From NCBI GenBank assembly GCA_964199315.1, contig OZ116699.1:30628001-30692000 (forward strand): DNA of 64,000 nucleotides, given 5' to 3'. The notes under the pieces are model-generated. The model ran no database searches, had not been told where the DNA came from, and saw only the letters and a list, made by a program, of their open reading frames with translations. A program made the translations under genes and the position numbers. This document shows, in pieces, positions 3,001 through 18,900 of the stretch (positions are counted from its first letter, which is position 1; the number at the start of each line of letters is the position of its first letter). Origin of the DNA: Orbicella franksi (taxonomy: Eukaryota).

Positions 3001-5354
3001 CTCTTCGACATATCGACTCTTGAGGAATTTACCAAGAGCATATTCTCCTCGCATTCCTTTCTAAAAACATGGAAATAGTCTATGTCATTAAGGAAGCCTG
3101 TCAAAACAACTTCAAAATATGAATGACAATAGCCACGCTTAAAAGATAAGGTTCAGATTTATTTGCATTGCTTTCATTTAGAAAGGTCGATGTCTTGACT
3201 AAAAGTGGGGAAGTTACCGAGAGCATATGTCGCCCACCCCCGCGGGGGGGAGGCCTTACTGCTTGTCGTACCTTTCAGGGGTTAGAACAGCAGTTTTGGT
3301 GCCTCTTAGGATGTTCAGCCTCGAAAGTTCCTCAGCAGGATCTTTCGGGCTGCCTTTTAGTACATTGAGCCGAAAAAAAATATGACAGGAGATAATGTGG
3401 TGCCTCTTATTAGGGGTGAAAAGAAAATTTCAAGCCACGCCCACAAAGCAGGATCTTGGTACCAGTCAGGGGTTCTCTTCAAAATTTCCGACGAGCACCC
3501 TCGTCCTTTTTATATGGGACCTCCCTCCCACCGGATGCCGGCTTGGCGCGTTTCTTTGTGAAAATATAAACATACTCCAGTCATTATGAAGCCTGTCTAG
3601 ATAATTTAAAAATGTCAGCAAAAATGACGACTTTTTTAATGAAAATCTGATGCCTTGAATTCATTGAAATTGTGCAAAAAAGCATTTGCACAAATAGTTA
3701 CGTCTAGTTATCTAGTTACGTCTTGTTTTGTGGTTGTCTCTGTCCTGATCCTCTCCTACGCAGAGGCTCGAAGGGTTTTTTGGGAGGAGAAAATCTGCTG
3801 AACACGATATGAGTGCAGGCCTTAAGTTACGTTGCGCCTGCGCTCACCTCGCACAGCGGCATTCTATAACGAACGTTTCAAACTTCTGCGGAAGAGAGAG
3901 GGATTTTGTCACTATCTGGGAAAAATTTTATCGGCACTGACTTGTGTTAGCATTCCAATTCCCTGCGGCCACACGTCTTCTTGGTACGGATCATTTGGAT
4001 AAATATGAGTAGGAGAGCGGTCACCATGGCGATAAACCTGCCGAGAGAGAAAGCCTATCTTTACTTCTCCACGTTGTATGAATATGTTAGCACATCCATA
4101 GATGCATTATTAAAGAGACACGTTTTGACATAAAATCTACAACATCCTGAACATGAAAACATTTACAAAGAGTTGAAAATCAATTGCTGCAATTTGATAA
4201 AAAGAAAATTGAAAAAAATATTTCTTAGTTTTCATGCTCCAAACAAATGCACTGTAATTCAACGCCTTTTCAGAAAGAAAAAAGGACGCTTCACCTGGGC
4301 TCAACCTCATACCGAAATTAGACGATTTAGACCAAAAATGAGTTTATGTGAGGGAAATTGGCAGGAAAATTTTTGGAGTAAAGCATGGCGTAGGAAAAAA
4401 ATGAAAAGATGGACAATGCAAGCCGACAAAAGAGAATGAGCGGGAGGAGAGTGGATAATATAAACCTTGATGCTTCAGTGAGCGTGGAAGTAAAGTTACT
4501 ACAGTAGACCACCTGACTAAAAGGATTGAAAATTCCCTTGAGCGATCGGCAGTTGAGGGTGTGACGCACGATAGAACGCAACTAGCAGCAACTAAAATCA
4601 GGAATACGCTGAGAACAGAATGGTTTGTCTGTACTTTTCGAGAAGACGTTGTTCCTATAAAGGGTCGAAAATGATGAGTCCAATTCATAGAGGCTAATAT
4701 TTAAATGGGATTCAAAGCCATTTAAACATCATCAGTCCCTTTGTTCACTTTCGTGACATCAGAAAAGAATATGATGTTCTCGTTAGGGAATTCCAAAGAA
4801 TAAAAAATATATATGTGTTGATATCATGCTCACAGGCTCGGATCAGATAACAGTGATTAGCAACAACTTAGAAATTCATTCATTATTACCTAGGCTTGAC
4901 GATTGACCGTTCTCAGTGAAAAAAAAAAAAAAAAAAAACTATTACCACAATTAATTTTGATGCGTTTTTGAAAAAAAAAAAAAACACCTTGGCTTTACCT
5001 TTGCGTATTTCAGTTGGAATGTATTGAAAGTTCAGGATTTTTAGAAAGAACAAAGCGGATTATGCATCAACGTGGTTTGTTCTAGACCTTGTCAATATTC
5101 TGTAACAATTTCAATCTCATGAAACGGTTTATAATCTCGTTGCTGGAAAGTGACAACAAAAAGGTAACAATTTCTTCCGCTCAAAAGTCGAGTCTCCTTA
5201 TAGCGTGTAGTATTTAAAAGCACAAGTTATTACTTTGACTCACCACATTTACCATCACAAGTTTTCGCTGGGTCTCGCAGGTTACTGAAGTTGGGTGTTG
5301 GGACCAAAACAGAAACGCGATAAGGTAACAGAGGCGCAAATAATGTCGATCCAT
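20..5354 (-). CDS. Histidine acid phosphatase (prostatic/lysosomal ACP family), paralog B; exons 1-7, 3' end lies beyond window start
   Basis: Exons 5354-5244 ([37 protein letters not shown], signal peptide-like), 4037-3942 ([32 protein letters not shown], RHGxRxP motif), 3060-2965 ([17 protein letters not shown]..), 2375-2289 ([16 protein letters not shown]..), 1760-1695 ([17 protein letters not shown]..), 1461-1363 ([12 protein letters not shown]..), 106-20 ([17 protein letters not shown]). All introns are GT-AG, phase 0, and match paralog A positions. Confidence 0.93.
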
Positions 5355-6495
5355 GTTTATGTTTTCTCCGAGAAAGCTTTTAGTAAACTTGTGGTTTTGC
5401 TTCGGTATGTAGAATTTAAGAAGTTCGCAAACAACAATCGTACCGTTTTTCTAAAGAATTATGTTTCGGAAATGTTATTCAGCCTTTGTCTATTATATTA
5501 TGTCCAAGTCAGGAACAATTAACATATACCTTTATGCCCTCATTAGTTATTTTGTCCTTTGTTTATCAAACAGAGACGCTTGTTAAGGACTCAGTATTAA
5601 ATGTTTTTCTCTCTCATTTCGTTAAAGCAACTGCTCACATCTTTCCATCTACTTCAACTGTGTGACAGAAACGCGGCAAAACAAAAAAAAACTATCTCAA
5701 AAACTGATTGTCATTTTTTCAGGAAAAACGTTGTTCCCTGACAACACCCAATGCCTCGAGCTCTTAACGTGGCGTTCACGAATATCCAAATTATTTTGAA
5801 AATCTATGGACATGTTTAACAGGTTCTCTATGTGATTTTGAATATATTTAGTTCTAGATCTTGAAATTGATCTTGCTGGGACTCCTAAGCTTCTTGCTTG
5901 TTCAGAGAGTGAAACATCTCTGCAAAACTTGTTTTTACAACCAGAGTTCAGACAATATCTGTTATCTTCTGGTAGCAATCTTCAACGACAACTAATTTAT
6001 CGGCGTCTCACCAAAATCAGTAGATTAAGCAATTCTGTGGGCTTATTGCCAAATAATAATAAAAAAAGGTGTTGAGGGTTGTATATTACTTTCTCTGACA
6101 TTTGCCTTTGGCAAATTAAAACGGACTTAAAGTCAAATGATATGAGGTATCCAGGTATTCTGTTTCACTTGGAAGAACTACATTATAATTCCCAATCAGC
6201 AAAGCAATGACAAAAGAATTAAAGCGAAAGAAGGTCGAGAATTGTGTTTTTGTGGTGACAATTGGAGCAGCGTTAAATTTTTCTTGAAGTTTTCCCACGA
6301 GGAAGAAATAACTTTTTCGTTTATAAGTTTTCGATTTAACTAGATCCATTAGGCGCTTGATGGACGTCATACGGTATGCGAGGTTTCAAATTAACTATTT
6401 TTGGAATTTGACTGTTTCATTAGACGTGAGAATTGCGAACGTTTCTGTTACTATAATTTGAGCGCGTTTGCACTATTCGGGCTTTGTGTTCGGTG

Positions 6496-6567
6496 CAGGG
6501 GCGGGGCAGAAGACTCCTGAAATTTTCGTATAGGCATCATCCAACAAAAAATGACGTCACATCCGGT
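6496..6567 (+). promoter_or_regulatory. Promoter module (GC box + CRE + ETS-like core), copy 1
   Basis: GGGGCGGGG at ~6498, then ATCATCCAACAAAAAATGACGTCACATCCGGT (6536-6567) containing TGACGTCA and CATCCGG. A YY1-like AAAATGGCG follows at ~6604. An inverted copy with the same 32 nt lies at 14120-14151. Confidence 0.6.
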
Positions 6568-7392
6568 TTAAACTGCGCTTCGCGGCTCGTTTCACAAAGC
6601 GAGAAAATGGCGTTTCGATTACTCGTGGTTTCCCTCTATTTGTAAACCATCAGTTTCGTTTCATTTTATATTGAGTATGGAAGGATGTTGCAGACACATT
6701 ACTTCGACTTTTGAAGCAAAAATTTCGGGAAAAGAGAAAAGTTTATTATTGTTTTGAAGCAAAATAACGGAGAGCCTTCCGTCATCGTCGGGCGAATTTT
6801 ACACATTTGTAAAACTGGTGTTGTTCCGACTTTTGGTTCTTGTTGTTCGTGATTTAGTGATAACAATAAGTGCAATAGCCTATAATGTTAACAACAACCT
6901 GGATGAAGTATTGCTGGCCATAGTTTGCACTGTGTACTACGGGAACATAATTAACAGAAGCCGTTTAGCTCCGAAAGTCGCTGTCACCAGAACTTTTGTT
7001 ACTCTTGGCTCACGTGTATTGGTAGAAGAGACAAGCTGGATCGCATGCTGAAGGTCAGTATCCCACATTCCTACATCTCTCGTTGAAGATTGTTGTTTTC
7101 AGTAAGATACAGTACATATGTATCGGTAGTTTGGGGTCATCAGTCTCTTTCTCTTTGGTGAGTGCTTTTAAAACGCCCAGTAAAAACTTGATTCACGACA
7201 TGGAAACTTATGCCTCGCTGGATCGAAATTCGAGCAAGATTTTTGAGTTCTAGTCCTCTTGAAAAGTAATTAAATCAATTATTCAAATCCAAGCCATCAG
7301 AGGGAATCTGCCATTGAAGCTGCCCTAAGTTAAGGTCCTGTTCATGGACCTTCCCCTTTGAAAATCGTGGGGGTGTTCTTTGAGGCAACACA

Positions 7393-7906
7393 GGTCCCAT
7401 TTGTATGGTCTCGGGTACCCGGGATAACCCTCCCCCTGAGGCAACTTTATCAAGTGTTTGTATGAGAAAATGTAGCCCATGTAGGCCGAGTAAAAGTTGA
7501 CCCTGCATGATTATTCGTAACTCCTATTGAATAATCAAATGTGCAACTATCCCTCTTTGTTTAGGTTTCCCTCACTCATTTGATCAGAGTGGGTTTTGCT
7601 GAGTTAATTTTCTCTTCTTTGATACAAATTGCTGCTTTAAATCTTAAATCTAGGCATTACGTGACACTCGCCATGCTGAGAGTTGTTCCAGTTAGGCGAG
7701 CCAAAGTGTTTATGTATACTCAAAGAAAAGTTGTTGGTTACTTTAGCTGCCAAGGCGAGTCAACTTGCCCACCTGAATTGTCTCACCCCCAAGTCTGGTT
7801 CGTCATCCTTGTGTAAACGGTTGGTTGAATTTTGCAAAGAAATAAGTGAAAAGTTAGCTCCGCCAGGGTAACTCGGGGAAAGGGTTGTCTCTGGTACACA
7901 AGAGCC
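7393..7906. mobile_element. Non-autonomous TIR element (degenerate)
   Basis: The left end ACCCGGGATAACCCTCCCCCTGAGGCAAC is roughly reverse-complementary to the right end GTAACTCGGGGAAAGGGTTGTCTCTGGT. No coding capacity; boundaries approximate. Confidence 0.45.
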
Positions 7907-8337
7907 ATTCTATTTTATTTCCATTTTCCCTCTTCCTCTTCCAACTGATTATGCAAAATATACTGTCCAAACTCTTTATGGGTACTGGTGTTTGAGAGTG
8001 TCATCTTTATCACTACTGTGGAATGTACCTCACCATAGAGCCACCCCCGTTAACACAGCCACCTAGTTATTATGGCCACTCTATTCTGGCTCAAACAAAA
8101 TCTCAGTCGGTCATTTTCTTATTTATTAATTATACAGTCAGATTTTTGAGACCTGTTGGTGACCAGATTAACAGAATTCTGGCACATTGTAGGAGTAATT
8201 TATATACAATTTACAGCAAGCAACAGGCATCATTTTGTTAGTGAAGTCCCATGCATATATGTAACTCTTGATTATTTTGAGATTTTATCTTTATTATGTC
8301 ATCAAGGCAATAATATTTTGATTCCTGCTCCAGCGGT

Positions 8338-8690
8338 AGGGGGGGGGGGGGGAACTCTCCTCTATGTGCTATATACAGCTGTGCAGCCCCAAAGGGTATG
8401 GTTATTCAGCCGTTTTGGTCATAAATACTCTAGGGTAAGGCTTTTGCCCTCTAGTCTTTAATTTGTTATGTTTTTTAGAATAAGCTACCTCAATTTTCAT
8501 CATTATTGATAAGACCATCAACAAAAGTCCTTCAAAACTTATGTTTAGGGCAACTGTAGCAGTCGCAACAGTCACAAATGGGGTAGGGAAAATCACAGAT
8601 TATGGTCATAAATAGGTTAAGAGTTTAACTTTTGTGAAGAGGGCTGCACTGACCCCCACCCAATTTTTCTGGGATGTACAAAACACATTT
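8338..8690 (+). repeat. Dispersed MITE-like repeat, same family as 50013-50404
   Basis: Shares CCCCAAAGGGTATGG..TCAGCCGTTTTGGTCATAAATA, GATAAGACC.TCAACAAAA, TATGTTTAGGGCAACTGT and CCCCACCCAATTTTTCTGGGA with 50013-50404. Confidence 0.7.
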
Positions 8691-11600
8691 TCTTAGCAGT
8701 TACTACAGTCTTGCTTTAGTAAATCAAAATAGTACTTGCTGCCAGGTACTTTATAAATTAAAGTATAACCCCTCCAGAAGCCTTCACAAAGTACATGTAA
8801 TATCTGGTGCTAACAATTTTTTTTTGCGGCTGATTAAAATTTGGTATTAAATTGTACTGAACTGGTGCAGGTTTAATATACATGATATTTTGTCACACTT
8901 AGTTCACTTATTTTAAGACTACTCAGCAGCAACTAGTACCTCTTGTATGACCATGCAGTAACAGTCTATTCCAAACAAAAAAAAAGTACATGTATATGTA
9001 TTACTATCCTGCCTGGAAGAGTGTGTAGAGAGAGCACACAGTGCAGTGCCCTACTGTATGCATTTTGTTAGGTATAATAATCTTAAATTTAGAAGACTCA
9101 TATTGATCTTAGGATTCACAAAAAAGTTGATTTCTTGGCAACTCTCCTTTAGCTGTGTCACTTCATAATAAATTAGCAGTTTGGTATGTTGTAGCATAGA
9201 ACTTTAATTAATTAAGTTATCACACTGGTATCACAGAGGTCATGGGTTAGAATCCAGTTCACACCTAATTTTTTTCAGGCTATAATTTCACCTTTGCTTA
9301 AGTTTTGTATAGTACGTTGCAATGATCAATCATGTCTTTATAAGTTGATCAATGTATATATGTCCCACTGACTTATACTTCAACATTTTATCTTAAAGTT
9401 TGTTTATTTGTTTTATTGTGTGGTTCTAGAAAATATCCATACCCACCCCAAGGAGATTACTGGAAATTCCAGGGATGGGGAGGGTCTCAAAAGCCAAACT
9501 TTTTAAAGAAATTAAAGTATTAATAAAAATTGGAATTTCCATAGGGAGGGATGGGGAGATCTCTGTTTAATAAATACATAAATAATATGTACAGACCATT
9601 ATCTGATGTGAAGACTGTGCAATATATCCTGGCCAATGAGTTGCCAAGGTGTAGCGTCCTTGTTATCAATTTCAAGTACCAAATTAAAGAAGATCAGCAT
9701 GTTAGATGGGAGAGGGGAATTTTTCAAAATATCATAAACTAAAAATATACATATTTTCCAAACTCAATCATGTTAGTAGTGTTAGTGTCTATTTATTTAT
9801 TTATTTATTTATTAATGAATACCTGTGAAGAGATAGTCATACATTCTTGCAAATATTCTGGGAGTCTCCCATATACCATTTAGATCATCCAGTCCCCCAG
9901 GAAAGTTATGAAATTTATTGTCCAAGTAAACTAATGAACCATGGGCTCCAGTGGGGACAGTGCTATTACGATGCAATTTGCAGATGTGCTACATAATATG
10001 AGCTTAACAGTTTTGTTACCATGGCAACAGACTGCATTTCAGACCTTCCCTGATATTCTAGGCTTTTCTGGCCACCTCATGGTCTTGATTAATGTTTTTC
10101 AAGCTGAAAATCACTGCATTATTGAAATTGGGTTAGAGGGAACTGGAAAAGATTGAGTTGCCAATTGGGAACATATTTTTATAGCCATATTAGTGTGTTG
10201 CCTGTAGAACTATAAGGCTACCAAGTTTCAATGATCTCTGCTGTATATATGGTCTGCACTTGATGTAATATTGGGTTTGGTGTATGACATCATCAGTCCT
10301 CTCATTTGCATATATTTTACACATTTTAAACTTAAATATCTCCAGAATTAATGCAAATATTTGTTAAGGTAAACAGCATTTGTAATCTATAGTGGAATTC
10401 TATTTGATACTCCTAAAAATTCTGAATCAAGGGGTAAACATTTGATGATAGTAGCAATATGCCAAATCATTGAGGTGAATTTATGCTGCTGACATTTACA
10501 TGTACTGTAAGGTGTTGAAGAGAATTTTGCAGGAGAATTTGGTGTGTTTATTGAATTGCCAGAGGTTGGTTGGCTGGTTTTGTTATTGCTTTGTCATTAT
10601 CTTCCATGTATTTTTTTTTTTAAAGAAGAGTGGTTGGTGGCAAAAGCAAAACTGGCAATATTCTCACTTACCTGTGTTTCTAAAGTCATGTTTTTAGGTT
10701 TTTGTGGTCAATCTATTAGTAGCTGCACTGTCTTAAATTACAATAGAAAAGATGTGATATTATTATGTAAGTTATACTTTGGTATTGTTCATACCAAAAT
10801 TATAGTATTTTCTGGTTCAATGTTTGCCTCTGCATTAATTTGATTAAACTACTGTAGTTTATTTTTTAATGGAATTTAATTCTGTCAAAAGGGAGGTGGG
10901 AATCTGAGAACAATAGCTGTGAACTAGACCAACAAATATACAGAAATCTACCACCATTGCTTTCATGGCTGAGTGGAGATGAATCTAAGTCAGACCGAAA
11001 TTAGAAAAAAAATTACTGATTTATTGGAGAGTTGAAATGGGATCCTGGCTATGGGAGAGTAGGAATTGGGGCTGAGGGGGGTGGGTGGTGTGCTTGTGAA
11101 TTTAAGAACCTCTCTGAAAGTGAAAACAAACTGTAGGTTTGAAAAGTTTAAAGCGAGGTTAAAAATTATACTTTAATATATCTTGTTTATTAAGGTGGTA
11201 ATGAGCATAATGCCCACTTAGGGTGAGTCATTGAAACAATGACATAATTTATGTTTGTCTTTTCTTAGGTGGTTACCTCCTGGCATATACACCCCACACA
11301 GGCATACAATGTTATGATTAGATGATACAACCTGCTTTCCCATGTTTAACATACACGTAAGAGTATTGATCAGTGGACCAGTGTACAAGTGTGATTTCTC
11401 TACTGATAATGAGAATTATAATAAAGATACAAAGCCACTCTGGTGTGATTTATTTAATTATTGCTTAACGGTAAAGTGAACCAGTTAAACCAAAGGTTGC
11501 ACTCTGTAAGATCAGGTGAACAAAAATTAAATAGAAAATTTCACTACATCAATTTTATTAATTAAGTATACTTCTCTGCAAAATATAGTTGGTATTTTGT

Positions 11601-14119
11601 TGTACTGGTAAGAATATAATTTGGAAATTTTTTATGGGAAATGTTTCCATTTAAAAATGTAGCTCAGATGCCACAACTATAGTTCTCCTTTCTGTGGTGT
11701 TTTCTTTTGTGGTAAATTGTGAAAACAAATTATGTTGACCTACATGTAAGTTAAAAAAATATACAAGTAGTAGCTCTTCTGAAAAAAAAAGTTAATTTGT
11801 TGTTGTTTCTTCCTGTTCATTTTTTCCTTGAACATTTTTATTTTCCTAATAAGTAGTTTAGCTAGCCATAAAAATGTTTTGTTGTCTCAGACCATTTTCA
11901 AGATAAAAAAGTGATTTGTATATAAAATTTGAATATTTGGGGGGGGGGGGGGTGGGGACCTTTTCAGAATTTCCCTACAAAGATCACAAGGTACAAGGGA
12001 AGAAGCAAAAATAGAATTTTAAGTGTTAAAACATATGTTTTCATCATCAGTTTGGGCCTCTCTGTGAAGCTGCATAGTATACTTGAGGATCATGTTATAC
12101 CCATTTTAATTCAAAATACAAATGGAAACTTGCATTGACAATCACTTAATCTCTTGGCACTGTTTTGTTTTTTAATAATTGCCTTTTTTCACAAAACAAT
12201 AATTTGAACATCTTTGTTTCCCAAGCTGGGAGGGGGGGGGGGGGGGGGAGGGGTATTTTACAAAGTTTTAAATGGAAAGGTCTTATCTCAAGGTCCATTA
12301 CCCCTTACCCTTTTGTATACATTTGTACCATTTTGATAGAAATGCCACCTCTTTTGTCGACCTTACATTGCAAAAGGGTTAATGTACCCCTTTAACAAAC
12401 CTATTTAAGAATACTGCATCCCTTTTCTATTCCCTTGGAAAAAAGTTAATAAATAATATTATAGAATCTCTTCATTCTGGCTGAGGAGAGTAAATGAGAG
12501 CTTTTCAACAACATTTTAGAACCAGAAGAATGGAATCCCTAAATGACAGATTTTCCTACCCTTTCATACACCTCAACTTGTGAAATTCCTATCATTAATT
12601 TTATACCTGAAGCCTGAAATAGGTACTCATCGTGAGCTGAGCCACCCCATATAGTTCATTACAGAGAGCCTTCCCACATACACAAATCAGGAACTCTTGA
12701 CAAGTACTGTAAGTAGATGCTGGCTTTAAGACTGGTCTGAGCCAGCTTCAGTTTTTTAGCACAAACTTGTTGCTCTCTGTCAATTTCTAGTACAAAACCT
12801 TTTCTTTGCTGATCTGGTCCAAGTTCACAGACACTAGCATCACTCTCACGACACTGACTCTATCACTGTCACTCACAGTCTGATTCTTCAGTTTCACTGC
12901 ACCATGCTTCATCATCACCCATCATTGTTAGACATGAGTTCATTAGCTTGTAAAATTCATCAGCCTGGCAGTGTCATTGTTGCTATTGCCTGTTCCCAGA
13001 CTTCCTTTTATGGCTAGGTGTAGGGGCATGAAATTTCACTACTGTTTACAAACAATTTGTTTAGATGGCATATTGAAAGTGATGAATTACTGAAAATTGT
13101 CAGTATTGCTAGTGTTCTCTCGTTTCCTTAGGGAGTGAAATATCTTGATGTAAGATTACAAAGAGAAAGCACACTGAAATATAATGCACAACTTTTTAGT
13201 AACCTTTCAAAATGGGTTGCCAATATGACAGGGATTAATAGATGAGGAACTTGGTCTGCAAACAGGGCAAATGAGAGGGTTTGAAGAAATTAAAGGTGCA
13301 TGCTTGACCTCAGTTGGGGGGGGGGGGTATTGGAACTTAGCGCTGCTGACGTCAAACACTGTTGAAACGGAAAAATAAATTTGATTATAAATGAGAGACA
13401 ACCACGACATGTCCAAATTACTTAATCGCCGTTAAAACTAATCCTCTTGCTTTTTTTTAAGGGGTTCACGGCCTGCCTGTAACGAAGCGTTTATCAATTA
13501 AGGGATTGCTTAGGGAAAACATATCTTGTTTAAGGTTCTTAACCAATCGTAACATATTTTATGGCATCAGTTTGAGTCATGAGCAAACACACGAGTTTGT
13601 GTTAGTGTCGATCGGCAAGAAAGTTATGCAAAGCGCGTTATGTGTGTGGGTCTATTCTTGCAGTGATACGATTAACAGCACTCAAGTACTCTCGAGTGTT
13701 TGGCAACAGTAAATTTAAAAAAAGGCGCTTCTGTTAATAAGGTTCCCCATGTCTAGAAACCTGTCATTGTGCATTTTTCTTAGTGTAATGCCTACCTAAG
13801 AGAATAGGATATTTGAATTGAGTGCAACTTACCTAGAATTCATTATCTCCACACAAACGATGACTCCTGTGGTATTCAGCGATGAAGAAATGGCGACATT
13901 TCGTAAAAAACACACCTTCAAAACAGCGTGTTTTTGAATAAATAATTACCCTGTCCTTCAAACAAACTGATATGACGAGGAAGAAGACAAAATTTTGTTT
14001 ATCGTGGCCAAATAAAACGTTAAAAATATCCGGCCGATTGCAAAATATTACCATTTTACTTACTGAGAGAACGATTATGCCATGTTCAAATTTGATTTTG
14101 CCGCTCAGCGCTCTTTTTT

Positions 14120-14202
14120 ACCGGATGTGACGTCATTTTTTGTTGGATGATTCAGATACACAAAAAGTGCCAGGCGTCGCAGAGTGTTCTCCCCCGCCCC
14201 TG
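14120..14202 (-). promoter_or_regulatory. Promoter module (GC box + CRE + ETS-like core), inverted copy 2, upstream of NADAR
   Basis: The reverse complement of 14120-14151 is identical to 6536-6567. GC box CCCCGCCCC at ~14192-14200. Lies ~300 bp upstream of the NADAR ATG. Confidence 0.6.
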
Positions 14203-14444
14203 GCTCGGTGTAATTTCCGGACAAGAAGACTCTCCAGGCATATGGATGGGTGTCCTGTGCCCCTACCGTGGGTCCCAGGCCTTCGTGTAGTTCAGTCATT
14301 CCAACATGGCGGATGAGAAGTCGACGTCCGGAAATTGCACCATTTGATGTAATTTCAGCCATACAATTTACATTTATGTGTTCTTTTCCATTCACTTGGC
14401 CTAAACGGTGGTAATAACGGTGTTTTGGAAAACGTCTGGCAGTA

Positions 14445-15038
14445 ATGTCATCTTCAAGCCTTTCAAAACAAAGTGCAAAAAGCGCTGAAGAAAATCTGGA
14501 ACCGATATTCTTTTTCTCTCGTTCTAGATTGCCCTATTGCCAATTTTCAAATTTTTACGAGGTTGATATCGAGATGCCGGAAGGTGTGTTTCCGTCAGTG
14601 GAACATTATTTCCAAGGCATGAAGTTCATTCCAGAAGACAGGGCACGGTTCATGAAAGGTGGAGAATTTGACAAGAAGAAGAACGAAACTTCAGCCAGAA
14701 ATGCTAAAGAGGAAATCGCGAAAGGAAAACTTGCCAAGTCTGCCGGTTCAAAATCTGGTTCTGCCAAGTACAAGTTGACTTTAGCTGCTGACGGTTTAGA
14801 CCAAGGAGTGGCTAAGCATAGGATGAAAAGAGCTTTGCAAAGAAAATTCGAACAAGAGCCTTATAGAAGCCTCCTTTTAGAAACTGTGGGCACACAGCTA
14901 ATCCACATTCCAACTCGAGGTCAAACGGATTTTTGGACTGGAAAAAAGGACAAGAAAACAGGTGAAATTGTTGGAGAGAATACCATGGGAAAACTACTCA
15001 TGGAAGTCAGAGATGCCATTCTGGGTTCAACTTGCTGA
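14445..15038 (+). CDS. NADAR / YbiA-like family protein, intronless, 197 aa
   Basis: Motifs FSNFY, FPSVEHYFQGMKF, MKRALQRKFEQ, LLLET, DFW and GENTMGKLLMEVRD match the NADAR pattern (FSNF..EHYFQA.KF..KF.Q..LL.TG..D..WG..G.N.LG.LLM.VR). Single open frame; AATAAA at ~15322. Confidence 0.9.
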   Translation: MSSSSLSKQSAKSAEENLEPIFFFSRSRLPYCQFSNFYEVDIEMPEGVFPSVEHYFQGMKFIPEDRARFMKGGEFDKKKNETSARNAKEEIAKGKLAKSAGSKSGSAKYKLTLAADGLDQGVAKHRMKRALQRKFEQEPYRSLLLETVGTQLIHIPTRGQTDFWTGKKDKKTGEIVGENTMGKLLMEVRDAILGSTC

Positions 15039-15970
15039 TGGCAATTATTCATGAAATCCTAAGAGAGGCTGAGATTTGGTGAAACTTTTACTGAGAGTGG
15101 ATCCTGGAACAACATTGTTAGGATAATTAGAAAAAAAACATAACAAAACAAAACAAAAAGAACCAATCCACCCATCCCGGAAAAAAACCAAACACATAAG
15201 AAACACAACACTAAACCACTGAACAACAACAACAAAAATAAAATAGAAAAAGGTATATGTTCCACTATGAAATATCTAAATCAGGCATTGAATTAAAATC
15301 GAGGCCTCATAAATACACTGTAATAAAAGAAAGTTACAAATTAGAAGGAATGACATTTATTACTCTAGGTATATTGGGGTGTTTCTCAAGGACTATCTTC
15401 ATCTCCATCTGAGATGTGTTTTATAAGAAGAGGGCAAGAGAGACCAGCGGAGGAGAAGGTTGGTTGTTTAGCGATGGTTGCAAAGAATGCTGCAAATTTG
15501 ATTTCAGTCACTTTTTTTGTTTTCTTCAGTTTGAGGCTGCAACTCACCTTTAACCTGAATCTTACGCAAGTGGTATAAGTCTGGGGGATTAAAACAAAAG
15601 AATTTTTTTCTAATTCTTCTGTCACCTGTGCCATGGAGCCAGATTAAAAACTCAACTAACTTTGAGAATAGACCTGTTATAGGTGCTGATGCTGGCAATT
15701 GAGCACTCAGTTCAAAATGAGTGACAGTAATGTTTGCAATTGTTTTCAGTCTCGAATTTTTCTGCTGTTGTAAAAAAAAAAAAATGTCAGCAGGCAGAAA
15801 ATTTAACGCTCTAAACAGTATAACAATGAAAAAATACAGAGAGAAATCTGCATGTTTTATTTTGAATAGTTTTCAGTTTGAAGTTTGTTTATTTTAGAGA
15901 CTTCGCTGCAAGCTTCCGGGTCGAAGCGCGCGGTTAGGGAACTGGTAACAGGTCCTGTGCGAAACTGAAA

Positions 15971-18900
15971 ATGGTGGACGGAAGCAGACGTCACTTCAGT
16001 TGTTTTAGTTTTCTTTTATGGCTTCTACAGGCTTTAACATTGTCATATGGAGTTCAGAAACTACGAATGGTGAATGTGGTGAGTATGGTTTTAGTTCCAG
16101 CTTGATTAGTTTTTCATTTTCTGAAGGAAACGAGAAGGGGTCTTACATGTAAGCAAGTGCTATACACAATGACTACTATTCGTTCGACTAGGAATTATGT
16201 CCGAATGACTCACTAGAAAAGCTTCATTCGTCTTAACATGCATATGACATTTTGGATCAGCAAGAATAAGTAGTCACGTATACATTTAACGACACTTCTA
16301 CTTCTGTAAGAATAGCGAACTAAGTCGTATAAATAATATCGTACGGGTGTCATTCGAATAGCCATTATTAAGCTTATGTAAGCTTAATTTCTATGACCTC
16401 ATTACTATGTTAAGCTTATGTACACGTGGAAATTTCCTTGACTTTCCCGTTTATACGTTACTTAACGCTCATTGAAAACTATATTGAAGAGAGTTCTTCG
16501 TACATCTTATATCACGGTAACGAAATCGCTTATGAGAAATATTTGTTGGGGCATGTAAGCTAGCTTAATAGAGCGTAAAGTGATTCCATCGAAAAAAATT
16601 GGTAATTATGTTATAAATGCTGTCGAAACGCGAAATTAAACAAAGGGTACCATACTCTATTTTGCACAATGGCTTGATGTTATCGCAACTATTCAATCCA
16701 CAAGGCTTTCCTCAGGAATCCTTAAATAATTTCCTGAGAAAGGTCATTTCTTGCATTAAAATATTGGAGCTGTTAAACAAAGCAGGCTTTGAGTTCAGAT
16801 TATAAGCTGTTTTTCTTAAAATTATGAAACAAATGTAATGATTTGCTGTATGCGCATATACCCAGCGTTTCATTAAGATGTGTTTGTCACAGCATTCAAA
16901 TATAATTGTGTATGCATGCCATTATGACGTGAAAAATTATGCACAGCAAGGATGCTCAAGGAGGGTCCCCTATACCCCTTTGTAAAACTCCACCATGTGA
17001 AAATATTCACCCTTTTCACATATCACAAATAATATCCAAAATTCTTTCATGTTCACACGAAATTCGAGGTGATCAAGTTTCACATAAAAGTAAAAAAACA
17101 AGTTTACGAATTAATATTTCCACTTCTTCTAACCTGGTTATAAAGCTTTTTGTCCCCCAAGTTCGGCTCTTTGTCTAAATCGCAAACAGGTCTGTGACCT
17201 CTCCTCATCTTGCAAAGACAGATGGTTGTCTTGATTCCACACTGCCAAAGTTAAATATGAGTTGAACTCTTAGTCGTACAACTTCCAAGGGAGTCACATT
17301 TCAATTTTGACTCCTAACTAATGCAACCTGTTACTGGTCTTTGTTACTTTCGTAACTCGTTTTCTTCTTTGTTTTGTTTACATAACTATTACTCATTAAC
17401 AATTTTGTACATTTTTAAAGTTTTTGCTATTCATGCTGTGATTGCTGTGATGAATGCAAGTTTCATAATGTAACCTTTGGAATCATGTAATTACTATAGA
17501 GACACCACATTTTTATCAGTTTAGTTGCGCCATCTACGTTTTCGCTATTTTATGCTAGTGCTGTCATCGCTATCATTCTAAGCTATCGTTTCTCCAATTG
17601 CCACCCTTGCAAGATCAAGATTAAAGTAAGTCTACATATCTTTAGTCATAATTGTGTCGTTATGGTTTAAGATCTATGTTCCATCAGTATCCTTGATTTA
17701 TGTTTTGTATCTTAGCTAGTATTAGCTTACATAACCCTTTTGTATTGTGTTGCTTTTAGTTTGAACCACACAATCACAACCACAACCATAACTTCGACTT
17801 CACATCACAAGTACATCTCTATTTTGTTATCCTGATTCCTATATTGTTGATTTATCGCTCCTTTCCAATAAATGCTATAATGATTGATTTTACTTTGACC
17901 TGGTTTCTTTGGAATTACATTACAATGTGTGTTTGAGTGTTTCAAGCTCCTGGGGTTAAACGGTCCTAATCTACATGTACACGTGGCTTCGCTCCTGGAA
18001 AGTCACAGTCTTTACTGCTAGTCTTTTCCAGAAGATGAGGTCGTGTTGGTGTATGTGTTCCTTTAAGTGCTTTTCCACATTCCTCAGTAGAATTTCAAAT
18101 AGAAGTACTTTAGACAGAGTACACCTGGTACACTTGCAAGGAATATCTATGATTTATAGAGATAATTTGGAGGCGCTGCAGTGGCCTGATGGTTAGTGTA
18201 CTGTCTAGACACTGGATTGATCAGTGCAGGTTAAAGTCTTGGCCAGGGCACTGCATTGTGTTCTTAGGCAAGACACTTTACTCTCACGGTGCTTCTCTTC
18301 ACCCAGGTGAATAAATGGTAACAATGAACAATGCTGGGGGTTGACCCTGTGATGGATGCTTCATGCTAGGGCATTACTAACCGGGATAAGCTCCAGATTT
18401 GCTTTAATAGAGATACCAAAGTCTCCGAAGCCCCATATCCACATAGAGGTTACTGGCCAATAAAACATCATTTTGATGCTGAAATTTTATTTCTAGGGTT
18501 GTCCTGGGCATATGCGGCAAAAGATGACGTAATGTCTTATCTTATTTGTTCAGAAACCATTAGTGGTCTATTTTAGGAGTTTTATTAATCCATAAGAAGT
18601 CCATGTCATGTCAAAACCCTAAACAATTTGTGCATTTTCAAACTGTAAGATAGCTGGAAATTCATCATGCAAAACAAAATGGTTCGCAAATCCTGTTTAA
18701 TTCAACTCTTCATTCACGGGTCACGTTTGAATAAAATATTTGTTTATGTGGACATGAAAAGATCTTACCATCTTTAATCATGAATCACGAATAAATTTCA
18801 AATCACGATTTACAAGAAAATAAATTACCCAATCACGCTTCACGTAAAGAGTATAGGGGACCCTCCACATGGCCATTCAATGGAATAACTTTAAATGGCA

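What the first reader, a model, noticed from the sequence alone, without database searches (positions are those of the whole stretch)
14445..15038. Intronless, divergent NADAR gene present in only one arm of the duplication; possible horizontal or viral acquisition
Characterised NADARs either hydrolyse reactive riboflavin intermediates (YbiA/PyrR-type) or remove ADP-ribose from guanine as antitoxins of DarT1. Animals do not make riboflavin and no DarT-like partner is visible here, so its role is open. By eye, the usual LVE..D..WG segment reads LIHIPTRGQTDFWTG (E to H, G to T), while the EHYFQ glutamate is kept, suggesting an atypical subfamily. The gene has no introns, unlike the flanking ACP genes, is followed by an A-rich tract (15130-15250), and has no counterpart in the mirror arm (5400-6450). 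It may be an inserted gene that captured the duplicated promoter, providing host-encoded repair against microbial nucleic-acid ADP-ribosylating toxins.
Basis: partly seen in the sequence, partly recalled or inferred. Interest (0 to 1): 0.7.

Follow-up and report, generated by a model that had tools for sequence, protein, structure and literature searches.

The report
Giant-virus-like histidine NADAR across corals
Stony corals, sea anemones and soft corals share an old, conserved enzyme gene whose closest relatives found are in giant viruses and unnamed environmental DNA, and which likely strips toxic ADP-ribose tags from DNA or RNA using a histidine previously described as the mark of phage versions.

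Summary
The 197-aa ORF is a real NADAR (Pfam above cut-off; YbiA fold, Z 14.9) under purifying selection. It is not a recent insert. Orthologues at 53-99% identity occur in stony corals, anemones and octocorals; the tree separates octocorals from hexacorals; and octocoral copies appear to carry an intron. The 'duplicated promoter' is the terminal inverted repeat of a young 7.7-kb transposon (8-bp target duplication, at least 40 near-identical copies, empty site seen in another allele). Profile alignment puts E53, K60 and H154 on E36, K43 and the histidine of T4 gp30.3, an active guanine-ADP-ribose hydrolase; the literature describes that histidine as the phage-NADAR mark. The fold and C-terminal motif are YbiA-like, not phage-like. 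The anthozoan clade (100/98) groups (96/98) with NADARs of giant-virus contigs and unnamed environmental proteins, which suggests an ancient transfer into the anthozoan stem; direction is not shown. Likely function: removal of ADP-ribose from guanine in DNA or RNA (untested). No toxin partner was found in this genome, but those searches had no positive control.

The parts
14445..15038 (+). NADAR gene, 197 aa, single coding exon; predicted catalytic E53, K60, H154
14301..14312 (+). Conserved CCAACATGGCGG motif near the inferred 5' end of the transcript (YY1-like or short upstream-ORF start; label recalled, function untested)
   Evidence: the core CAACATGGC is kept in 8 of 8 coral loci aligned; RNA-run contig X18 record 16 starts at 14315
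6496..14202 (.). Young 7,707-bp DNA transposon-like element (ends CAGGGGCGG, hAT-like by recalled criteria); absent from other alleles; not part of the NADAR gene
14100..14202 (.).
6488..6495 (+). Left 8-bp target-site duplication GTTCGGTG
14203..14210 (+). Right 8-bp target-site duplication GCTCGGTG (7 of 8 match)
5244..5354 (-). First coding exon of acid-phosphatase paralogue A (signal-peptide-like, ends MVNV before the RHGDRSP exon); about 1.4 kb head-to-head from NADAR at the empty site
   Evidence: read from sequence
15971..16078 (+). First coding exon of acid-phosphatase paralogue B, 0.9 kb after the NADAR stop
   Evidence: read from sequence
15130..15250 (+). A/C-rich low-complexity tract in the inferred 3' untranslated region; variable between corals, not a retrocopy tail

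Best explanation
This is an old, conserved anthozoan NADAR gene, likely taken up once from a giant virus before stony and soft corals split, that is predicted to cut ADP-ribose off guanine in DNA or RNA. Shown: NADAR family and fold; orthologues in stony corals, anemones and octocorals; purifying selection; E53, K60 and H154 align with the catalytic positions of characterised NADARs; the nearest sequences found are from giant-virus contigs and unnamed environmental DNA; the neighbouring 'mirror' element is a transposon. Inferred mechanism, by analogy with PDB 8BAU and T4 gp30.3: K60 holds the pyrophosphate, E53 and H154 grip the distal ribose from opposite sides, and the N-glycosidic bond to guanine N2 is hydrolysed. 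Because T4's His-type enzyme acts on guanine but not cytidine adducts, this one is predicted to be guanine-selective. Inferred role: cleaning up guanine adducts made by CARP-1/pierisin/Scabin-type transferases of microbes or of the coral itself, in the nucleus and, in octocorals, possibly in mitochondria. Separate odds: vertical within Anthozoa 0.97; guanine-ADP-ribose hydrolase in vitro about 0.65; giant-virus donor about 0.5.
For: Family and fold: pLDDT 88; H154 ends a beta-strand; Z 14.9 to YbiA, 13.6 to 8BAU, 7.5 to DarT1-NADAR. Orthologues named Acropora, Porites, Orbicella, Desmophyllum, Nematostella, Actinostola, Paramuricea and Dendronephthya; H154, K60, D162, W164 and N179 are invariant in 38 of 38 aligned. 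dN/dS 0.04-0.23 against 4 coral loci, and 0 non-synonymous against 4 synonymous changes against a fifth. GC3 0.38 lies at the low end of four other long ORFs in the window, 0.39-0.46. hhalign puts E53/K60/H154 on T4 gp30.3 E36/K43/His and on YbiA's Glu; E36 and K43 are needed for AdfN activity (PMC11257639, passages). All NADAR subtypes tested remove guanine-ADP-ribose (PMC11125620, PMC12945103, PMC11833690). Tree: anthozoa 100/98; with the Glu-type long-insert clade 96/98; with the His-type HFER group 96/83. Grouping anthozoa with 8 named cellular YbiA-type rows is rejected, p-AU 1e-6. Members of both neighbouring groups lie on giant-virus contigs, two of them beside intronless RNA polymerase Rpb1 or Rpb2 genes. 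The two best viral fold matches reach TM 0.69-0.70, the named one a mimivirus protein, against 0.55 for YbiA. A giant-virus-to-octocoral transfer is published for mtMutS (PMC8438181, abstract). A CARP-1 homologue is listed for Acropora millepora (PMC12945103 supplement).
Against: No activity was measured. In Streptomyces NADAR even Glu-to-Asp or Glu-to-Gln at this position kills activity (PMC12945103), so a His needs a re-tuned site, and the Asp before the conserved Trp is shifted by one residue here. The anthozoan clade is sister to, not nested inside, the viral-rich clade; most neighbouring rows are unnamed and some look eukaryotic; I chose the viral rows for the tree; the sister group differed between trees (His group, Glu group); identities are only 25-38%. 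No other animal NADARs were in the tree, because none surfaced in the searches. No guanine-modifying transferase was found in this genome (no positive control rang). This species lacks both the presequence-like extension (two in-frame stops upstream) and an NLS-like tail motif. The one raw-read RNA run laid gave 0 reads, which is no test.
Confidence: 0.5

Rival explanations
1. Same enzyme, but inherited from an ancient eukaryotic lineage and lost in other animals; giant viruses picked up their copies from eukaryotic hosts.
For: Anthozoa are sister to, not inside, the viral-rich clade. Many unnamed His-type relatives have basic, NLS-like tails or TFIIS-type fusions that look eukaryotic. Octocoral copies appear to have an intron.
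Against: No close relative carried a cellular organism's name or among the 32 best hits. The profile score drops from 281 bits or more for full-length anthozoan rows to 94 for the next full-length hit. It needs losses in every other animal phylum sampled. Hexacoral copies are intronless, so the intron can be a later gain.
Confidence: 0.3
2. The histidine changed the job: the protein acts on a small molecule (a damaged nucleotide or an ADP-ribose derivative) or only binds ADP-ribose.
For: YbiA also cleaves riboflavin intermediates, and stand-alone NADARs may have other targets (PMC11543638, passages). The catalytic Glu is intolerant of change in one NADAR (PMC12945103). Strong conservation in all anthozoans suggests a housekeeping substrate rather than an occasional toxin. 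No partner transferase was found here.
Against: His-bearing T4 gp30.3 is active on guanine adducts; E53 and K60 are kept; TIGR02464 (riboflavin N-glycosidase) scores 54.7, below its 73.7 cut-off; NLS-like motifs occur in the tails of 16 of 34 orthologues scanned.
Confidence: 0.25
3. One reading: a recently inserted bacterial or viral gene that captured a duplicated acid-phosphatase promoter.
For: Single coding exon, one copy, no counterpart beside paralogue A, viral affinity.
Against: The 'promoter' is a transposon end that is absent from other alleles; gene order is conserved in other corals; orthologues span Anthozoa and split into octocoral and hexacoral branches; composition is host-like; phage matches are at most 31% identical and viral loci found with the anthozoan alignment 25-34% over the domain.
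Confidence: 0.02

Closest known systems
YbiA-type NADAR (E. coli YbiA, PDB 2B3W) and stand-alone Phytophthora NADAR (PDB 8BAU)
   Same: Fold (Z 14.9 and 13.6), SNF, (S/T)xEHxFQxxK, and the C-terminal W..G.NxxGxxLMxxR motifs.
   Different: His instead of the defining Glu in the last strand; an insert of about 20 residues in the middle; T-D-F-W-T-G instead of D-A-Y-W-G; 22-29% identity.
Phage NADAR gp30.3 / AdfN (T4)
   Same: His at the last-strand catalytic position (LIH against LKH), plus the Glu and Lys shown to be needed in AdfN (PMC11257639).
   Different: gp30.3 lacks the W-G...G-N segment; no Pfam Phage_30_3 hit; 22% identity; host-encoded and conserved in animals rather than a phage counter-defence gene.
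Animal NADARs tested or listed in print (Amphimedon NADAR, ladybird NADARs from bacteria, Dendronephthya XP_028391651)
   Same: Animal-encoded NADAR; a protective role against microbial guanine/cytidine ADP-ribosylating toxins has been proposed (PMC12945103).
   Different: Those are described as Glu-type and did not surface as relatives. I could not check whether XP_028391651 is the same gene as my Dendronephthya hit (LOC114525710).
Octocoral mtMutS (giant-virus gene in an anthozoan)
   Same: A nucleic-acid maintenance gene in anthozoans whose nearest kin are in giant viruses (PMC8438181, abstract).
   Different: mtMutS is mitochondrial and octocoral-only with a confirmed transfer; this gene is nuclear, pan-anthozoan, and the transfer is inferred.
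DarT1-associated NADAR antitoxin (PDB 8BAT)
   Same: Superfamily; conserved Glu and Lys.
   Different: Asp at the last-strand position there; weaker fold match (Z 7.5); no DarT gene beside this one.

Membership tests
NADAR superfamily | Pfam PF08719 above gathering score | tested here: met
   49.9 bits against 35.1
NADAR superfamily | YbiA fold (helical core with two small sheets) | tested here: met
   AlphaFold2 model pLDDT 88; Z 14.9, rmsd 2.8 over 149 residues to 2B3W; Z 13.6, rmsd 2.9 over 152 to 8BAU
NADAR superfamily | Conserved Glu (ribose) and Lys (pyrophosphate) in helix 1 | tested here: met
   E53 and K60
NADAR superfamily | Hydrolysis of guanine-N2-ADP-ribose | not testable with these tools
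   needs an in vitro assay
YbiA family | Glu in the last strand | tested here: not met
   H154 aligns with YbiA's Glu; His in 38 of 38 aligned orthologues
YbiA family | TIGR02464 above cut-off | tested here: not met
   54.7 against 73.7
Phage gp30.3/AdfN family | His in the last strand | tested here: met
   hhalign LIH to LKH, probability 94%
Phage gp30.3/AdfN family | Pfam Phage_30_3 match and minimal core without the W-G...G-N segment | tested here: not met
   no PF08010 hit at E 0.1; the segment is present here and absent in T4
Phage gp30.3/AdfN family | Tree placement with gp30.3 | tested here: inconclusive
   T4 fell outside the clade but was misaligned there, and was left out of later trees
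DarT1-associated NADAR antitoxins | Asp in the last strand | tested here: not met
   His
DarT1-associated NADAR antitoxins | Linked DarT toxin gene | tested here: inconclusive
   neighbours are acid phosphatases; the genome search for PF14487 found 0 but no control rang
hAT-type DNA transposon (element at 6496-14202) | Terminal inverted repeats and 8-bp target duplication (criteria recalled) | tested here: met
   7 of 8 match here; exact 8-bp duplication at a paired copy on contig C7, one-base-shifted at a copy on C1
hAT-type DNA transposon (element at 6496-14202) | Transposase gene | tested here: inconclusive
   no transposase Pfam hit in 20 of the 65 listed stop-to-stop frames scanned

The most novel reading that the evidence does not exclude
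The common ancestor of corals and sea anemones captured a giant-virus NADAR, tuned it to a phage-like histidine active site, and has kept it ever since as a nuclear and (in soft corals) mitochondrial eraser of guanine ADP-ribosylation. That would imply a reversible guanine-ADP-ribose mark or a constant toxin pressure in anthozoan cells, and a second giant-virus nucleic-acid repair gene in the group after mtMutS.
Probability: 0.25. Interest if true: 0.75.

Novelty: new variant of a known kind. Interest (0 to 1): 0.45.

Why it matters
The physiological role of animal NADARs is stated as open in the field (PMC11125620). This gene gives a tractable test case: one copy found here, conserved across Anthozoa, and present in Nematostella, where knock-outs are possible. 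It also breaks the published rule of thumb that the last-strand histidine marks phage NADARs, by showing a large YbiA-fold group with histidine in animals, giant viruses and unnamed microbes. If the giant-virus origin holds, it is an older, class-wide counterpart to octocoral mtMutS.

Tried and rejected
Retrocopy with a poly(A) tail: the tract is mixed A/C and variable, and gene order is conserved. Assembly chimera or contaminant: coral loci and RNA-run contigs are continuous across the gene. Bacterial or phage donor: the scan of 185,579 prokaryote genomes with three anthozoan-derived patterns gave 2 loci at 29% (this only finds close relatives); phage records at most 31%; one plasmid hit with a His-type relative at 31%. 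Toxin partner in this genome: Scabin-like, DarT and Enterotoxin_a families gave 0 matches with no control ringing, so no evidence either way. N-terminal presequence in this species: rejected, two in-frame stops upstream, and the upstream frame is not kept among 8 coral loci. One origin of the histidine shared with the HFER group: neither shown nor rejected (p-AU 0.31). ESM Atlas: generic NADAR clusters only; three attempts with homologues returned no result. Raw-read expression test: run X24 gave 0 reads, no test. Whether NADAR and acid-phosphatase B share a transcript was not tested. One bootstrap tree timed out and was redone on fewer rows. Viral scans with P0274 and with one motif pattern found nothing. 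Earlier-findings look-ups gave nothing relevant.

Full report
Observation. The window holds an uninterrupted 197-aa ORF at 14445-15038 on the + strand. It matches Pfam NADAR above the curated cut-off (49.9 against 35.1 bits) and TIGR02464 below its cut-off. The AlphaFold2 model (pLDDT 88.2) matches YbiA (Z 14.9, rmsd 2.8, 149 aligned), Phytophthora NADAR 8BAU (Z 13.6) and, more weakly, the DarT1 antitoxin 8BAT (Z 7.5). Three searches of the 497-Mb genome (protein, PF08719, TIGR02464) each returned this locus alone; spliced, divergent NADARs could be missed.

The 'mirror arms' are two separate things. The acid-phosphatase genes on either side are old inverted paralogues: only exons align, at 74-81%. 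The shared non-coding block (6496-6586 against 14100-14202) is a pair of terminal inverted repeats. Both ends read CAGGGGCGG and are flanked by GTTCGGTG and GCTCGGTG. The right end has 40 full-length matches at 99-100% among 40 scored of 367 candidates, each of the 20 fetched ending at the same base, with 19 different flanks. The left end has 40 matches at 97-100% among 40 scored of 359. A paired copy on contig C7 has an exact 8-bp duplication. Locus L003, 99% identical, lacks the element and keeps one target copy, and a contig from RNA run X1 joins the same two flanks. No transposase Pfam hit was found in 20 of 65 frames scanned. Without the element the order is phosphatase A (-), NADAR (+), phosphatase B (+), with about 1.4 kb and 0.9 kb between coding regions. 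L004 shows the upstream link and L006 and L007 both links; L008 and L009 are too short or too distant to tell.

Range and age. The single-sequence search gave 38 hits among 737 candidates at 54-99% identity. Named members are Acropora, Porites, Orbicella, Desmophyllum, Nematostella and Actinostola and, with the profile, the octocorals Paramuricea and Dendronephthya. I treated the unnamed close hits as anthozoan by their place in the tree; P0026 and P0033 in particular have no name. Twelve N-terminal half ORFs stop resembling the family after KMK(E/D/Q)G or KMTQG, seven C-terminal half ORFs start at LxxKF after unrelated sequence, and full-length octocoral proteins read through the junction. 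Five half pairs share the same longest-contig length. I read this as one coding intron in octocorals; I did not see the DNA. dN/dS is 0.04-0.23 against four coral loci. Eight RNA-labelled runs from four studies hold 77-100% of the sampled words. In run X18 one contig spans 14315-15133 with no joint and no depth at 14224-14275; contigs cannot prove transcription, and the one raw-read run gave no reads.

Active site. Published work defines the last-strand residue as Glu in YbiA, Asp in DarT1-linked and His in phage NADARs (PMC11125620, parts 1-3 of 6 and supplement read; PMC11543638, passages; PMC12945103, parts 1-4 of 8 and supplement). hhalign places E53, K60 and H154 on T4 gp30.3 E36, K43 and its His, and H154 on YbiA's Glu. 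E36A and K43A inactivate AdfN (PMC11257639, passages). T4's enzyme removes guanine but not cytidine adducts (PMC12945103); NADARs also act on RNA guanine adducts (PMC11833690, passages) but not on the guanine-N1 adduct made by PARP15 (bioRxiv 10.64898/2026.03.31.715305, passages; its supplements are closed). H154 is invariant in 38 of 38 aligned orthologues and present in the octocoral sequences. Activity is therefore predicted, not shown. Against it, Glu-to-Asp or Glu-to-Gln kills the Streptomyces enzyme, and the Asp before the conserved Trp is shifted by one residue here.

Targeting. In 15 octocoral-type sequences the 35-51 residues before a second Met hold 5-11 basic and 0-4 acidic residues, like a mitochondrial presequence (composition only, no predictor and no control). 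NLS-like motifs lie in the tails of 16 of 34 orthologues scanned before the script stopped. This species has neither: two stops lie 9-10 codons upstream.

Origin. After the anthozoan sequences the best full-length hits are 25-38% identical and unnamed. They form two groups: a His-type group (LxHFER..WG) and a Glu-type long-insert group. Motif scans of IMG/VR found both on giant-virus contigs: 6 loci for the His type and 16 for the Glu type, two of them beside intronless Rpb1 or Rpb2 genes and one beside DUF5767. A FastTree on 338 domains (of 502 extracted, redundancy removed) nested anthozoa in the His group. IQ-TREE on 118 and 142 rows made them sister to the Glu group. The bootstrap tree on 71 hand-picked rows gave anthozoa 100/98, anthozoa plus Glu group plus one further row 96/98, and these plus the His group 96/83, with octocorals split from hexacorals (99/94 and 84/88). 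Joining anthozoa to 8 named cellular YbiA-type rows is rejected (p-AU 1e-6); a single origin of the His is not rejected (p-AU 0.31). So the kinship with giant-virus NADARs is supported, while the donor and direction are not shown: anthozoa are not nested among viral rows, most rows are unnamed, and other animal NADARs were not in the tree. NADARs are known in several giant-virus groups (PMC9503650, passages), and giant-virus-to-octocoral transfer has a precedent (PMC8438181, abstract).

Role. No Scabin-like, DarT or Enterotoxin_a match was found in this genome, without a ringing control. A CARP-1 homologue is listed for Acropora millepora, and PMC12945103 already proposes that NADARs of sponges and corals protect against actinomycete toxins. 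The most likely role is removal of guanine-ADP-ribose from nucleic acids, whether the writer is microbial or the coral's own.

Novelty. Paper searches found no description of a His-type anthozoan NADAR or of its giant-virus kinship; the library misses most subscription papers, and I did not read the 2012 paper that defined the families. One published tree includes a Dendronephthya NADAR (XP_028391651) that I could not match to or exclude from this family. Verdict: a real, old gene and a new variant of a known enzyme family; the promoter-capture story is refuted; the viral link survives as an ancient and unproven event. Interest 0.45.

Noticed in passing
window 6496-14202: Young, polymorphic 7.7-kb element with terminal inverted repeats, about 360 candidate ends in the genome and many full-length pairs of 7.7-7.9 kb; no transposase found in the frames scanned. 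It sits in the divergent promoter region of acid-phosphatase A and NADAR.
   Followed up: partly
L147:914-4159 (-) and 5347-7602 (+): On a giant-virus contig a His-type NADAR lies directly upstream of an 845-aa ORF with an ADP-ribosyltransferase exoenzyme match (PF03496, 28.7 bits) and near a MutS gene: a possible viral writer-eraser pair.
   Followed up: no
P0128, P0135, P0272, P0369-P0397, L143-L148: A large unnamed His-type NADAR group (LxHFER..WG), some fused to a TFIIS helical bundle or labelled Rpb7 fusions; not found described.
   Followed up: partly
P0256, P0257, P0105 and related octocoral proteins: Octocoral orthologues carry long acidic C-terminal tails with repeated KRK and PKIKRKK motifs, and a conserved presequence-like N-terminus before a second Met.
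   Followed up: partly
window 51202-55302 (-): Single-exon 1,366-aa ORF with a repeat-rich N-terminal region and a multi-pass membrane C-terminus by eye; no Pfam hit at E 0.1.
   Followed up: no
window 61373-62798 (-): Exons of a MACPF/perforin-domain gene (PF01823, 85 bits).
   Followed up: no
window 39321-40514 (+) and 42168-43022 (-): Two convergent single-exon basic ORFs (397 and 284 aa) with no Pfam hit.
   Followed up: no
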